Source: an uncultured Thermodesulfobacteriota bacterium (GTDB taxonomy: Bacteria; Desulfobacterota; BSN033; WVXP01). From it: DNA of 64,000 nucleotides. Location of the stretch: contig CAYGBK010000085.1 of NCBI GenBank assembly GCA_964348095.1, positions 920-64,919 on the forward strand, read 5' to 3'. A model generated the notes under the pieces. The model made no database searches, had not been told where the DNA came from, and saw only the letters and a program-made list of their open reading frames with translations. This document shows, in pieces, positions 61,742 to 61,930 of the stretch (position 1 is its first letter; every line of letters begins with the position of its first letter). Both the position numbers and the translations under genes were made by a program.

Positions 61742-61813
61742 ATGATGAACCGCTATAGATTCTATTGGTGGTGGAGAGAAAAAGTAGGGATTTGCCGACT
61801 TATGGCGAGATGA
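61742..61813 (+). promoter_or_regulatory. trpL: Leader-peptide ORF with three consecutive Trp codons (MMNRYRFYWWWREKVGICRLMAR); trp attenuator
   Basis: GAGGAAAA RBS, ATG, then TGG TGG TGG at 61766-61774. Two terminator hairpins follow, ahead of trpD. Confidence 0.65.
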
Positions 61814-61840
61814 TAATTGGATGGATGAATGAATAATCGG

Positions 61841-61930
61841 GGCCGTGGGCAAATCCCTTGCTCACGGCCTTTCGTTTCCTAAAGAGAAAGCCGTGGGCGA
61901 TGAAATGAGCTCGCGGCTTTTTCGTTTTCG
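61841..61930 (+). terminator. Two tandem hairpins, each followed by a U-tract (attenuator pause/anti-terminator and terminator)
   Basis: H1 is ggccgtgggcaa-atccc-ttgctcacggcc followed by tttcgtttc. H2 is agccgtgggcga-tgaaatga-gctcgcggct followed by ttttcgttttcg. Confidence 0.65.

What the first reader, a model, noticed from the sequence alone, without database searches (positions are those of the whole stretch)
61742..61930. Classic ribosome-mediated trp attenuator (WWW leader peptide plus two alternative hairpins) upstream of the trpD-like gene
A 23-codon leader ORF with its own RBS contains three consecutive Trp codons. It is followed by two hairpins, each trailed by a U-rich tract. The 3' arm of hairpin 1 is complementary to the 5' arm of hairpin 2. 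This gives the pause / anti-terminator / terminator alternative pairings of the E. coli trpL paradigm. Leader-peptide attenuation is textbook in Proteobacteria but is rarely annotated automatically, and it appears to be operating here on trpD specifically.
Basis: seen in the sequence. Interest (0 to 1): 0.6.

Follow-up and report, generated by a model that had tools for sequence, protein, structure and literature searches.

The report
Trp leader-peptide attenuator with two terminators
A short upstream reading frame with three consecutive tryptophan codons, followed by two terminator hairpins in series, very probably switches off a tryptophan-pathway gene when tryptophan is plentiful; this is a textbook kind of switch, found here in an uncultivated sulfate-reducer-related lineage, with unusual wiring, in front of an unusual copy of the gene.

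Summary
The window holds a 22/23-codon ORF (61742/61745-61813) with a Shine-Dalgarno site and TGG x3 (61766-61774). Two stable hairpins with U-rich tails follow, and their arms are cross-complementary.

25 of 26 evaluable related loci carry an in-frame W-W-(C/W)-W leader, the same two hairpins and a conserved TTGACA promoter. These loci come from Thermodesulfobacteriota/"Deltaproteobacteria" MAGs and metagenomes, with 39-92% protein identity. A covariance model built from relatives only finds the window element.

The wiring is not the classic E. coli one. Hairpin 1 lies 67 nt past the Trp codons, so a ribosome cannot melt it. It pairs with the 5' arm of hairpin 1. Hairpin 1 is itself a terminator, and its freed 3' arm can then block hairpin 2, giving a relay.

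No Rfam family matches. The regulated gene is not a canonical trpD. It is a paralogue that lacks the GTGGD/KHGN motifs and coexists with true trpD in relatives.

A paralogous Phe/Tyr-codon attenuator (63178-63411) controls an 8-gene aro operon next door.

Verdict: new variant of a known kind, of moderate interest.

The parts
61678..61706 (+). Putative sigma-70 promoter: -35 TTGACA (61678-61683), 17-nt spacer, -10 TATTCA (61701-61706). The predicted transcription start is near 61713-61715.
   Evidence: Read from the sequence. TTGACA is invariant in the alignment of five leader regions (A2), and TTGACA-N17-TAAAT-like boxes are seen in nearly all relatives. The consensus scanner did not list it, because its rule requires a T at position 6 of the -10 box. 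Function is inferred.
61734..61739 (+). Shine-Dalgarno sequence AGAGGA of the leader ORF.
   Evidence: The spacing is 2 nt to ATG 61742 and 5 nt to ATG 61745.
61742..61813 (+). Leader ORF (trpL-like): MMNRYRFYWWWREKVGICRLMAR, stop TGA at 61811-61813.
   Evidence: Homologous in-frame leader ORFs occur in 25 of 26 related loci.
61766..61774 (+). Regulatory codons: three consecutive Trp codons (TGG TGG TGG).
   Evidence: Relatives carry WWCW, WWWW, WCW, WWRW or WLCW at the same place.
61786..61806 (+). Segment 2, the 5' strand of antiterminator 1 (AGGGAUUUGCC-G-AC....GGC). It lies inside the 3' end of the leader ORF and pairs with 61842-61858.
   Evidence: Duplex -26.7 kcal/mol, 0 of 200 shuffles as good. 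It is the MFE pairing when a ribosome is placed on the Trp codons. The equivalent pairing is kept in all 18 loci tested (87.7% of cells paired versus 32-55% when slid).
61841..61869 (+). Hairpin 1, terminator T1: 5' arm 61841-61852, loop 61853-61857, 3' arm 61858-61869.
   Evidence: -23.8 kcal/mol. The structure is conserved with compensatory changes.
61870..61879 (+). U-rich tract of T1 (TTTCGTTTCC). It is weaker than in relatives, which have TTTTTATTT.
61858..61900 (+). Antiterminator 2, the relay: the 3' arm of hairpin 1 plus its tail (61858-61873) pairs with the 5' arm of hairpin 2 (61886-61900).
   Evidence: Duplex -22.5 kcal/mol, 2 of 200 shuffles as good. It replaces hairpin 2 in the MFE when pairing 2:3 is forced. 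96.4% of cells are paired across relatives.
61884..61923 (+). Hairpin 2, terminator T2: G+C core 61890-61898 with 61909-61917, extended by A-U pairs.
   Evidence: -24.0 kcal/mol. Conservation and covariation are shown.
61918..61929 (+). U-rich tract of T2 (TTTTTCGTTTTC).
61944..61950 (+). Shine-Dalgarno sequence GAGGAGG of the regulated gene.
61957..63072 (+). Regulated gene: a TrpD-like paralogue (TrpD'), 371 aa. It has a conserved LDREEITIERETIL insertion in place of the GTGGD loop, and KYGR in place of KHGN.
   Evidence: Scores above the cut-off for TIGR01245 (326 bits versus 199). The motif losses are seen against PDB TrpD and against the canonical TrpD of L002. 120 of 120 closest homologues share these traits.

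Best explanation
This is a ribosome-mediated (leader-peptide) transcription attenuator that senses charged tRNA-Trp. It is built as a relay of five RNA segments with two intrinsic terminators in series.

How it works:
- Transcription starts about 30 nt upstream of a 22/23-codon leader ORF.
- When tryptophan is plentiful, the ribosome runs through the three Trp codons and covers segment 2 (61786-61806) on its way to the stop codon at 61811. The 5' arm of hairpin 1 therefore stays free. Hairpin 1 (T1) forms and terminates. Polymerases that escape meet hairpin 2 (T2), 20 nt further on.
- When tryptophan is scarce, the ribosome stalls with a Trp codon in the A site. Its leading edge (about +12 nt) stops just short of segment 2.
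- Segment 2 then pairs with the whole 5' arm of hairpin 1 as that arm emerges (antiterminator 1).
- The orphaned 3' arm of hairpin 1, together with its U-tract, pairs with the 5' arm of hairpin 2 (antiterminator 2).
- Neither terminator forms, and the polymerase reads into the TrpD-like gene.

What is shown: the elements, their pairing potentials, their geometry and their conservation.

What is inferred: actual termination at T1 and T2, the stalling, and the kinetic order of folding.

Difference from most relatives: in most relatives the Trp codons themselves (UGGUGGUGCUGG) also pair with the 3' half of segment 2 (CCAGUGCC). That gives the classical 1:2 'no translation means termination' state. 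This pairing is not predicted in the window, so here the untranslated default would be read-through.
For: Anatomy.

Geometry:
- The last Trp codon is at 61772. Adding 12 nt gives 61784, and segment 2 starts at 61786.
- The stop codon lies 5 nt after segment 2.

Constrained folds of the nascent RNA ending before the 3' arm of hairpin 1:
- With a ribosome on any Trp codon, the 5' arm of hairpin 1 is about 0.85 paired to segment 2. This holds in the window and in most of the 19 relatives modelled.
- With the ribosome at the stop codon, the value falls to about 0.3-0.6.
- Without a ribosome it is 0.17-0.5 in most relatives, where the 1:2 hairpin forms.

Pairing energies against shuffles in 18 loci:
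- 3:4, 4:5 and 5:6 are matched by at most 2 of 200 shuffles in every locus.
- 2:3 is matched by 0-1 of 200 in most loci and by up to 14 of 200 in a few relatives.
- 2:3 (-26.7 kcal/mol) and 3:4 (-25.8 kcal/mol) are nearly equal in energy in the window.

Conservation:
- 25 of 26 evaluable TrpD' loci carry an in-frame leader with 2-4 Trp codons, a conserved promoter, segment 2, H1 and H2.
- This includes loci at only 39% protein identity.

Structure counts on the 19-sequence alignment:
- Terminators: 94.6% of cells paired, 9 compensatory pairs, 0 of 500 shuffles as good.
- 2:3: 87.7% paired.
- 4:5: 96.4% paired.
- 1:2: 82.3% paired.
- Each far exceeds its slid controls.

Other support:
- A covariance model built from relatives alone finds the window element.
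- With 2:3 forced, the window's MFE uses 4:5 instead of hairpin 2.
- The stems of H1 and H2 keep the same core (GCC[A/G]UGGG) in every lineage, although ordinary terminator stems are free to drift. The relay model predicts this.
Against: - There are no expression data. Termination, stalling and read-through are all inferred.
- At equilibrium the double-terminator state is always the most stable, as it is in E. coli trpL. The switch therefore has to be kinetic, and no co-transcriptional simulation was run.
- With the ribosome placed exactly at the stop codon, the core of segment 2 (61787-61795) is still exposed in the model. The 'replete' state depends on timing rather than on static masking.
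- Relay step 4:5 is the weakest link. With 2:3 forced, only 6 of 18 loci prefer 4:5 over hairpin 2 at equilibrium.
- The 4:5 complementarity could be a by-product of H2 being a duplicate of H1.
- Two loci (L023, L025) have replaced H2 with an unrelated hairpin.
- Covariation support for 2:3 is not significant, because the sequences are too conserved.
- The U-tract of T1 in the window is interrupted (UUUCGUUUCC).
- The window lacks the 1:2 pairing (-8.9 kcal/mol, 35 of 200 shuffles as good).
Confidence: 0.8

Rival explanations
1. This is the classic four-segment trpL wiring. Hairpin 1 is the 1:2 pause structure that the stalled ribosome disrupts directly. Its 3' arm then forms the 2:3 antiterminator with the 5' arm of hairpin 2, and hairpin 2 is the only terminator.
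For: The cross-complementarity of hairpin 1's 3' arm and hairpin 2's 5' arm is real. The U-tract of T1 in the window is imperfect, so in this genome hairpin 1 may act mostly as an anti-antiterminator.
Against: The 5' arm of hairpin 1 starts 67 nt after the last Trp codon and 28 nt after the stop codon. A ribosome footprint (about 12-15 nt ahead of the A site) cannot reach it. In relatives hairpin 1 is followed by a canonical U5-6 tract. Without segment 2 there is no physical link between translation and hairpin 1.
Confidence: 0.05
2. The hairpins are bound by a trans-acting factor, either an RNA-binding protein of the TRAP/PyrR/antiterminator type or an sRNA. That factor controls termination, and the Trp codons are not the sensor.
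For: The stem core GCC[A/G]UGGG is unusually conserved. It is shared by four hairpins in the window (two attenuators) and by relatives. That is what a protein recognition site would look like.
Against: The regulatory codon block changes with the pathway controlled: WWW before TrpD', FYFYFYFFF before the aro operon, FYFYWFFY in L014. The RNA chassis stays the same, which points to codon reading as the sensor. The Trp codons are always in frame with a start, a Shine-Dalgarno site and a stop placed just after segment 2. There are no TRAP-type (G/U)AG repeats, and no T-box or riboswitch match in Rfam. Stem conservation is explained by each arm having to pair with two partners.
Confidence: 0.05
3. 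The two hairpins are constitutive terminators or insulators, for the upstream gene or for making a stable leader RNA. The small ORF is incidental, and the TrpD-like gene is transcribed from elsewhere.
For: At equilibrium both hairpins always form. Tandem terminators are used as insulators.
Against: Upstream genes differ between loci: an amidase in the window, a transposase in L002, GNAT/pheA in L008, others in L031-L032. The promoter, leader and hairpins always travel with TrpD'. Only 27-45 nt separate T2 from the gene's Shine-Dalgarno site, which leaves no room for another promoter. Two to four in-frame Trp codons in 25 of 26 loci cannot be incidental.
Confidence: 0.03
4. In addition to control in cis, the terminated leader RNA or the leader peptide acts in trans, as rnTrpL and peTrpL do in Sinorhizobium meliloti. 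That would explain the conservation of the peptide motif N-W-W-C-W-[EQ]-K...E-V-C-P-[VA]-P.
For: The peptide is conserved from the Trp block to the stop codon. There is precedent in S. meliloti (PMC6614838, PMC7298713; listed). Two terminators would release a defined, stable, hairpin-capped RNA.
Against: The conserved codons coincide exactly with RNA segments 1 and 2. The substitutions seen (CCA/CCG, GUG/GCG/GCA) keep the base pairs whether or not they keep the amino acid. The window's peptide (..WWWREKVGICRLMAR) differs from the consensus while the pairings are kept.
Confidence: 0.1

Closest known systems
Escherichia coli trpL attenuator of trpEDCBA (Rfam Trp_leader RF00513)
   Same: A short leader ORF with tandem Trp codons. 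Mutually exclusive antiterminator and terminator structures are selected by where the ribosome sits. An intrinsic terminator precedes the first structural gene. In most relatives, though not in the window, a 1:2 hairpin also involves the Trp codons.
   Different: There is no sequence or structure match to RF00513. There are three Trp codons instead of two. There are two terminators in series linked by a second antiterminator, so five or six segments instead of four. The first terminator lies well downstream of the stop codon. In the window the untranslated default is predicted to be read-through rather than super-attenuation. The lineage is different (Thermodesulfobacteriota-type MAGs).
Leader-peptide attenuators of split trp genes in other bacteria (Sinorhizobium meliloti trpL-trpE(G); Pseudomonas trp leader attenuation; Actinobacteria trpL)
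   Same: Trp-codon leader peptides control only part of a dispersed set of trp genes (PMC6614838, PMC1262725, PMC13434334; listed). This shows that attenuation is neither tied to a complete trp operon nor confined to gamma-proteobacteria.
   Different: In those cases the regulated genes are canonical trpE or other canonical trp genes, and a single terminator is described. Here the first regulated gene is a motif-divergent TrpD paralogue. I found no description of this family in the searchable library. That is absence from one library, not proof of novelty.
Phe-codon leader attenuators (E. coli pheA / pheST leaders, Rfam Phe_leader RF01859)
   Same: The neighbouring element at 63178-63411 has a leader rich in Phe and Tyr codons in front of aromatic amino-acid biosynthesis genes.
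   Different: There is no Rfam match. It mixes Phe and Tyr codons (FYFYFYFFF). It controls an 8-gene operon covering the whole common pathway plus tyrA and pheA. It uses the same two-terminator chassis as the Trp element.
Tandem attenuators and tandem riboswitches (e.g. the Salmonella mgtCBR leader with two leader ORFs, PMC3641672)
   Same: More than one termination decision point lies in a single leader.
   Different: Those systems have two independent sensors. Here one sensor (a single leader ORF) appears to govern two terminators through a chain of alternative pairings.
Bacillus subtilis TRAP-mediated trp attenuation
   Same: Tryptophan-dependent choice between an antiterminator and a terminator in a trp leader.
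   Different: TRAP needs 9-11 (G/U)AG repeats, and none are present. Here the sensor is translation of Trp codons.

Membership tests
Ribosome-mediated (leader-peptide) transcription attenuators | A short ORF with its own ribosome-binding site and start codon, between a promoter and an amino-acid biosynthesis gene. | tested here: met
   ORF 61742/61745-61813, Shine-Dalgarno AGAGGA at 61734-61739, promoter-like TTGACA-17-TATTCA at 61678-61706. The ORF is conserved in 25 of 26 related loci.
Ribosome-mediated (leader-peptide) transcription attenuators | A cluster of regulatory codons cognate to the pathway's end product. | tested here: met
   TGG x3 at 61766-61774. Relatives have 2-4 in-frame TGG codons at the same place. 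The neighbouring aro-operon leader has F/Y codons instead.
Ribosome-mediated (leader-peptide) transcription attenuators | An intrinsic terminator (G+C-rich hairpin plus U-tract) between the leader ORF and the structural gene. | tested here: met
   There are two: 61841-61869 with its tract at 61870-61879, and 61884-61923 with its tract at 61918-61929. Both are conserved with compensatory changes. Actual termination was not tested.
Ribosome-mediated (leader-peptide) transcription attenuators | An alternative antiterminator pairing that uses the 5' arm of the terminator and an upstream segment. | tested here: met
   61786-61806 pairs with 61842-61858, -26.7 kcal/mol, 0 of 200 shuffles as good. 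The pairing is conserved.
Ribosome-mediated (leader-peptide) transcription attenuators | A geometry in which a ribosome stalled at the regulatory codons favours the antiterminator, and a ribosome that reaches the stop codon favours the terminator. | tested here: met
   Footprint-constrained folds. Stalled: antiterminator about 0.85. At the stop codon: 0.40 in the window. The static model is only partly discriminating, because the switch must be kinetic.
Ribosome-mediated (leader-peptide) transcription attenuators | Read-through that depends on the supply of charged tRNA-Trp. | not testable with these tools
   This needs expression data or in vitro transcription-translation.
Rfam Trp_leader (RF00513) and other curated leader families | A covariance-model match at or near the gathering score. 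| tested here: not met
   No Trp_leader, Phe_leader, T-box or riboswitch hit even at E <= 10 in 61400-64000, nor at E <= 1 in five related loci.
The two-terminator Trp leader family defined here from relatives (model R1) | A full-length match to a covariance model built from 16 relatives without the window. | tested here: met
   61763-61926: 20.7 bits, E about 2e-3. 63290-63411: 24.9 bits, E about 2e-4. These are the only full-length hits in 64 kb, on both strands. The E-values are rough.
Canonical anthranilate phosphoribosyltransferase (TrpD) | Whole-protein match to the TrpD equivalog model. | tested here: met
   TIGR01245: 326 bits against a cut-off of 199. Best PDB match is TrpD chain 9ucw_A at 283 bits.
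Canonical anthranilate phosphoribosyltransferase (TrpD) | The conserved GTGGD loop (beta1-alpha5), which binds the PRPP 5'-phosphate and the amino group of anthranilate (PMC9835598). | tested here: not met
   It is replaced by ..LDREEITIERETILSTTTPTKGTS... It is absent from 120 of 120 closest homologues, all of which carry the DREE[IV][TN] insertion.
Canonical anthranilate phosphoribosyltransferase (TrpD) | The KHGN(R) motif (beta2-alpha6 loop; ribose and anthranilate contacts). | tested here: not met
   The window has KYGRK. The family has YGRR, YGRK, HGRK or FGRR, and 0 of 120 have KHGN. L021 keeps RHGN.
Canonical anthranilate phosphoribosyltransferase (TrpD) | The Mg2+-binding Asp-Glu pair and the anthranilate-binding Arg. 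| tested here: met
   ..TLDEIS.. and ..GLRTIFN.. are conserved in alignment A3.
TrpD2 / YbiB DNA-binding proteins | Match to the YbiB model, and less than 20% identity to AnPRT (PMC9835598). | tested here: not met
   NF006005 scores 39.8 bits against a cut-off of 185, on the N-terminal 60 residues only. The protein is about 45% identical to the canonical TrpD of L002.
TRAP-dependent trp attenuation | A series of (G/U)AG triplets spaced by 2-3 nt in the leader. | tested here: not met
   There is no run of 4 or more such repeats in 61700-61960.

The most novel reading that the evidence does not exclude
An uncultivated Thermodesulfobacteriota-type lineage uses one modular 'two-terminator relay' attenuator chassis. 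It consists of a promoter, a leader ORF, segment 2, and terminators T1 and T2 with cross-pairing arms.

The specificity of this chassis is reprogrammed simply by swapping the codon block:
- WWW / WWCW for tryptophan.
- FYFYFYFFF / FYFYWFFY for the aromatic common pathway.

A single ribosome-position signal is passed through two successive antiterminators.

The Trp version is dedicated to a previously unrecognised TrpD paralogue. This paralogue has lost the PRPP-binding GTGGD loop and coexists with true TrpD. It is therefore not a redundant enzyme but a starvation-induced protein with a new role, for example a regulatory pseudoenzyme partner of TrpD or TrpEG, or an enzyme with a different substrate.
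Probability: 0.35. Interest if true: 0.7.

Novelty: new variant of a known kind. Interest (0 to 1): 0.5.

Why it matters
Leader-peptide attenuation is a textbook mechanism, but it is documented mainly in Proteobacteria and Actinobacteria and is almost never annotated in metagenome-assembled genomes.

This work adds the following:
- A conserved family, absent from Rfam, with at least 25 loci.
- It can be used to annotate regulation of aromatic amino-acid genes in an environmentally abundant, uncultivated group.
- Its two terminators, coupled by a chain of alternative pairings, would be a natural example of signal relay and gain sharpening within a single leader.
- Reuse of the same RNA chassis with different codon blocks (Trp versus Phe/Tyr) is a clean natural experiment on how attenuators evolve new specificities.
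- The attenuator works as a functional label. It ties a large protein family, annotated everywhere as 'anthranilate phosphoribosyltransferase' but lacking the PRPP loop, to tryptophan starvation. That makes the function of this paralogue a directly testable question.

Tried and rejected
- **Rfam.** I scanned the window region at E <= 10 and five related loci at E <= 1. Only noise hits came back (snoRNA, miRNA and sRNA models far below their gathering scores). Membership of known leader, T-box or riboswitch families is rejected.
- **Consensus promoter/terminator scanner.** It found neither hairpin nor the TTGACA promoter because of its fixed rules, so it was not informative.
- **Equilibrium folding of the complete leader with ribosome masks.** Hairpin 1 forms in nearly every scenario. 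Equilibrium probabilities therefore cannot discriminate the states, and I switched to nascent-transcript snapshots.
- **A 1:2 pairing in the window between the Trp codons and segment 2.** It is not supported (-8.9 kcal/mol, 35 of 200 shuffles as good). In the window the Trp codons pair with upstream ACCGCUAUAG instead.
- **The idea that GCCGTGGG hairpins are a generic genomic repeat or REP-like element.** 5 of the 9 occurrences lie in the two attenuators. The intergenic hit at 13343 is not a hairpin.
- **The MAFFT alignment A1.** It misaligns the window row in segment 2 and in the 5' arm of hairpin 2. Counts involving the window are therefore conservative, and per-sequence duplex energies were used instead.
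- **Literature searches** for a delta-proteobacterial trp leader, for tandem terminators in leader-peptide attenuation, and for a TrpD paralogue lacking GTGGD. No description of this system was found. Vitreschak et al. 2004 and similar subscription papers are not in the library.
- **TRAP-type repeats.** None found.
- **Not attempted:** structure prediction of TrpD' (the alignment already places the insertion at the beta1-alpha5 loop) and co-transcriptional kinetic simulation (no tool available).
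Full report
**1. What is in the sequence**

Between an amidase-like gene (ends at 61563) and a TrpD-like ORF (61957-63072) lies a 390-nt spacer. It contains the following elements.
- A good sigma-70-type promoter: TTGACA 61678-61683, a 17-nt spacer, TATTCA 61701-61706.
- A Shine-Dalgarno site, AGAGGA (61734-61739).
- A short ORF, 61742 (or more likely 61745) to 61813, encoding MMNRYRFYWWWREKVGICRLMAR. Three consecutive TGG codons lie at 61766-61774.
- Hairpin 1: 61841-61852 with 61858-61869, 12 bp, -23.8 kcal/mol, tail TTTCGTTTCC.
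- Hairpin 2: 61884-61898 with 61909-61923, -24.0 kcal/mol, U-tract TTTTTCGTTTTC at 61918-61929.

The region folds far better than shuffles: z = -4.5, and 0 of 200 shuffles fold as well. The 3' arm of hairpin 1 is complementary to the 5' arm of hairpin 2 (-22.5 kcal/mol).

**2.

Hairpin 1 starts 67 nt after the last Trp codon and 28 nt after the stop codon. No ribosome on the leader ORF can touch it, so it cannot be the ribosome-sensitive 1:2 hairpin of the E. coli scheme.

The missing link is a stretch at the 3' end of the leader ORF, 61786-61806 (AGGGAUUUGCC-G-AC....GGC). It is complementary to the entire 5' arm and loop of hairpin 1, 61842-61858. The core is GGGAUUUGCC pairing with GGCAAAUCCC, a perfect 10 bp. 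The whole duplex is -26.7 kcal/mol, with 0 of 200 shuffles as good.

This segment starts about 12 nt after the first base of the last Trp codon, just beyond the leading edge of a ribosome stalled there. It ends 5 nt before the stop codon.

I folded the nascent RNA that ends just before the 3' arm of hairpin 1, with ribosome-footprint masks.
- With a ribosome on any Trp codon, the 5' arm of hairpin 1 is sequestered by this segment (0.86).
- With a ribosome at the stop codon, the value drops to 0.40.

At full equilibrium the terminator always wins, as in E. coli trpL. The switch must therefore be kinetic.

**3. Comparative evidence**

Scans of GTDB genomes and JGI metagenomes with the protein gave 27 loci. 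Exact look-ups added more. Source names are 'Deltaproteobacteria bacterium', 'Thermodesulfobacteriota bacterium' and 'uncultured Syntrophaceae bacterium'. The window itself is in NCBI MAG assemblies GCA_012974965.1 and GCA_011773285.1, labelled 'Proteobacteria bacterium'.

Of 26 loci of this protein family with enough upstream DNA, 25 carry the following in order:
- a TTGACA promoter;
- a leader ORF whose conserved part reads N-W-W-C-W-[EQ]-K...E-V-C-P-[VA]-P-stop, with variants WWWW, WCW, WWRW and WLCW;
- hairpin 1 (GGCCAUGGGCGG.../...CCCAUGGCC plus U5-6);
- hairpin 2 (AAAAGGCUAUGG/CCAUAGCCUUUUUU).

This includes L021/L022 at only 39% protein identity. The exception, L033, has the gene 35 nt behind iorAB-like genes.

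Upstream neighbours differ from locus to locus, so the leader travels with this gene.

Counts on a 19-sequence alignment:
- Both terminators: 94.6% of cells paired, 9 pairs with compensatory changes, 0 of 500 shuffles as good.
- Segment 2 with the 5' arm of hairpin 1: 87.7% paired. Covariation is not significant because the sequences are too conserved.
- The 3' arm of hairpin 1 with the 5' arm of hairpin 2: 96.4% paired.
- The Trp codons with CCAGUGCC: 82.3% paired.
- Slid controls give 25-69%.

Per-sequence duplex energies in 18 loci support the pairings independently of the alignment.
- 3:4, 4:5 and 5:6 are matched by at most 2 of 200 shuffles in every locus.
- 2:3 is matched by 0-1 of 200 in most loci and by up to 14 of 200 in a few relatives.
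- This holds although the window's segment 2 (GGGAUUUGCC) and the relatives' (GGAGGUCUGCCC) differ in sequence, each matching its own hairpin.

A covariance model built from 16 relatives only finds exactly two full-length hits in the 64-kb window. One is the element under study (61763-61926, 20.7 bits, E about 2e-3). The other is a second element at 63290-63411 (24.9 bits, E about 2e-4).

**4. Mechanism**

The best-supported reading is a leader-peptide attenuator wired as a relay.

In most relatives the full classical logic is present.
- With no ribosome, the Trp codons (UGGUGGUGCUGG) pair with the 3' half of segment 2 (1:2, -18 to -27 kcal/mol), and both terminators form.
- With a ribosome stalled on the Trp codons, segment 2 is free and captures the 5' arm of hairpin 1 (2:3).
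- With a ribosome at the stop codon, segment 2 is covered and hairpin 1 (3:4) terminates.

The novelty is downstream. Hairpin 1 is itself a terminator and is followed by a second one. Only 27-45 nt separate hairpin 2 from the gene's ribosome-binding site. The gene can therefore be expressed only if hairpin 2 is also bypassed.

The only conserved complement to its 5' arm is the 3' arm and U-tract of hairpin 1 (4:5). That arm is freed precisely when 2:3 forms. In the window, forcing 2:3 makes 4:5 replace hairpin 2 in the MFE.

In every lineage the two hairpins keep the same stem core:
- window: GCCGUGGG in both;
- main clade: GGCCAUGG and GGCUAUGG;
- L021: GGCUGUGGGC and GGCCGUGGGC.

The relay predicts this, and ordinary terminators do not show it.

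This last step remains inferred.
- At conditional equilibrium only 6 of 18 loci prefer 4:5.
- Two loci have replaced hairpin 2.
- The similarity of the two stems could also reflect a duplication.

The window and L021 lack the 1:2 pairing. The untranslated default here would be read-through, unlike E. coli.

**5. Comparison with what is known**

The class is textbook: E. coli trpL, S. meliloti trpL, Actinobacteria, Pseudomonas (PMC6614838, PMC1262725, PMC13434334). The element meets every sequence-testable criterion of that class.

It does not match Rfam Trp_leader or any other curated RNA family. It has no TRAP-type repeats. It differs from the classic in architecture: two terminators governed by one sensor.

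I found no description of it in the searchable literature. That is a limited library, so prior description cannot be excluded. I therefore rate it a new variant of a known kind.

**6. The regulated gene is not an ordinary trpD**

It scores as TrpD (TIGR01245, 326 bits against a cut-off of 199). Alignment with solved TrpD structures and with a canonical TrpD shows otherwise.
- The GTGGD loop is replaced by a conserved 13-residue insertion, LDREEIT[IV]ERETIL. According to PMC9835598, this loop binds the PRPP 5'-phosphate and the amino group of anthranilate.
- KHGN becomes KYGR.
- The Mg2+-binding DE pair and the anthranilate-binding Arg are kept.

All 120 closest database homologues share these traits, and all are annotated 'anthranilate phosphoribosyltransferase'.

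In L002 and L031 the paralogue is the first gene of an operon that also contains a canonical trpD:
- L031: leader-TrpD'-trpE-trpG-(acyl-CoA dehydrogenase)-trpD-trpC-trpF-trpB-trpA;
- L002: leader-TrpD'-trpE-trpG-trpD-trpC, to the end of the fetched locus.

It is not TrpD2/YbiB.

So 'operating on trpD specifically' should read as follows: the leader always sits in front of TrpD', which stands alone (as in the window) or heads the trp operon. The function of TrpD' is unknown. The attenuator ties it to tryptophan starvation.

**7. The neighbouring element**

350 nt downstream of TrpD' lies a second attenuator with the same layout (alignment A2; model hit).
- Promoter: TTGACA-17-TAGACA (63178-63206).
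- Leader: ..MFGKGFYFYFYFFFRRGLSIRLDI (63224/63242-63316).
- Segment 2': GGUCUGUCC (63290-63298), complementary to GGGCAGACC in hairpin 1'.
- Two hairpins with U-tracts (63336-63366 and 63378-63405).
- All four pairings are better than 200 of 200 shuffles.

It precedes an 8-gene operon for the whole common aromatic pathway plus tyrA and pheA. A relative (L014) has an FYFYWFFY leader of the same design before a different aromatic-pathway gene.

The RNA chassis therefore appears to be reused with a swapped codon block. This argues strongly that the codons are the sensor.

**8. Verdict**

- Confidence that this is a functional Trp leader-peptide attenuator: about 0.8.
- Confidence that the second terminator is controlled by the 4:5 relay: about 0.5.
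- Interest: moderate (0.5). This is a known principle in a new, conserved, unannotated variant, with two useful by-products: a modular Phe/Tyr sibling, and a mis-annotated TrpD paralogue family flagged as responsive to tryptophan starvation.

Noticed in passing
window 63178-63425 (promoter 63178-63206; leader ORF 63224/63236/63242-63316; hairpins 63336-63366 and 63378-63405): A second, paralogous two-terminator attenuator. Its leader is rich in Phe and Tyr codons (..GFYFYFYFFF..). It has the same 2:3, 3:4, 4:5 and 5:6 pairing scheme. It lies in front of an 8-gene aro operon: DAHP synthase, aroB, aroDE, aroA, aroK, aroC-CM, tyrA, pheA. It is found by the covariance model built from Trp leaders (24.9 bits).
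   Followed up: partly
window 61957-63072 (and L002:4001-5107, L008:3001-4104, L021:3001-4083, L031:10001-11125): The 'trpD' behind the attenuator is a distinct paralogue family. The GTGGD PRPP loop is replaced by a conserved LDREEIT[IV]ERETIL insertion, and KHGN is changed to [YHF]GR[RK]. This holds in 120 of 120 closest homologues. The paralogue coexists with canonical trpD in the same operon in L002 and L031. It is annotated everywhere as anthranilate phosphoribosyltransferase, and its function is unknown.
   Followed up: partly
L014:2421-2632: A relative's contig carries another aromatic leader, MDQLRIFNFSSGFYFYWFFYAGIRPLPCA. It has a segment-2-like GGAATCCGCCCACTGCC and two GCCGTGGG-type hairpins with T-runs. 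It lies upstream of an ORF starting [28 protein letters not shown]. From memory this looks like a DhnA-type aldolase or ADH synthase of the alternative shikimate route, but it was not scanned against any family library.
   Followed up: no
L007-L016, L031, L032: between the T1 U-tract and hairpin 2 (e.g. L008:2898-2913, L011:2903-2922): A small extra hairpin overlaps the end of the T1 U-tract. Its arms covary: UCUGC/GCAGA, CUGCC/GGCAG, CUGUU/AACAG, CCCG/CGGG. Its 5' arm repeats the UCUGCC core of segment 2. Its role is unexplained, and it is absent from the window.
   Followed up: no
L010/L027 (2800-3000), L012 (1750-2078), L015 (420-539), L032 (9905-10000): Insertions of 60-330 nt lie between hairpin 2 and the gene start in some relatives. 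Some have their own inverted repeats (e.g. GTCATTCCCGCGCAGGCGGGAATCC in L010), possibly small mobile or repeat elements. L007, L010 and L012 also have an extra nested hairpin inside the loop of hairpin 1.
   Followed up: no
L023:2310-2484 and L025:960-1135: In these two loci hairpin 2 is replaced by a second small ORF with its own Shine-Dalgarno site (MLKQKIWSQLLGGDLSFLPSLWLFKVKFEVL in L023, two scattered Trp codons). A different G-rich hairpin with a T-run follows. This may be a different second stage of control.
   Followed up: no
L033:7631-11092: This is the one TrpD' locus without a leader. The gene follows, after only a 35-nt gap, two genes whose Pfam domains (POR_N/TPP_enzyme_C/Fer4, then POR) look like indolepyruvate or 2-oxoacid:ferredoxin oxidoreductase (iorAB). 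That is another link of TrpD' to aromatic or indole metabolism.
   Followed up: no
window 63390-63428 (L028:11434): Public gene calls start the DAHP synthase at an ATG inside hairpin 2' (window about 63390). The ATG at 63426, preceded by GGAGGG (63413-63418), is the more plausible start, so the annotated N-terminus is probably 12 residues too long.
   Followed up: partly
window 63073-63177: There is no convincing terminator between the TrpD' stop codon and the aro promoter. Transcripts that pass the Trp attenuator may run into the Phe/Tyr attenuator, which would place the aro operon under two inputs in series.
   Followed up: no
window 59287-59796: A TspO ('tryptophan-rich sensory protein') homologue lies 2 kb upstream (NF047825: 134 bits, below the cut-off of 180). 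This is probably a coincidental neighbour.
   Followed up: no
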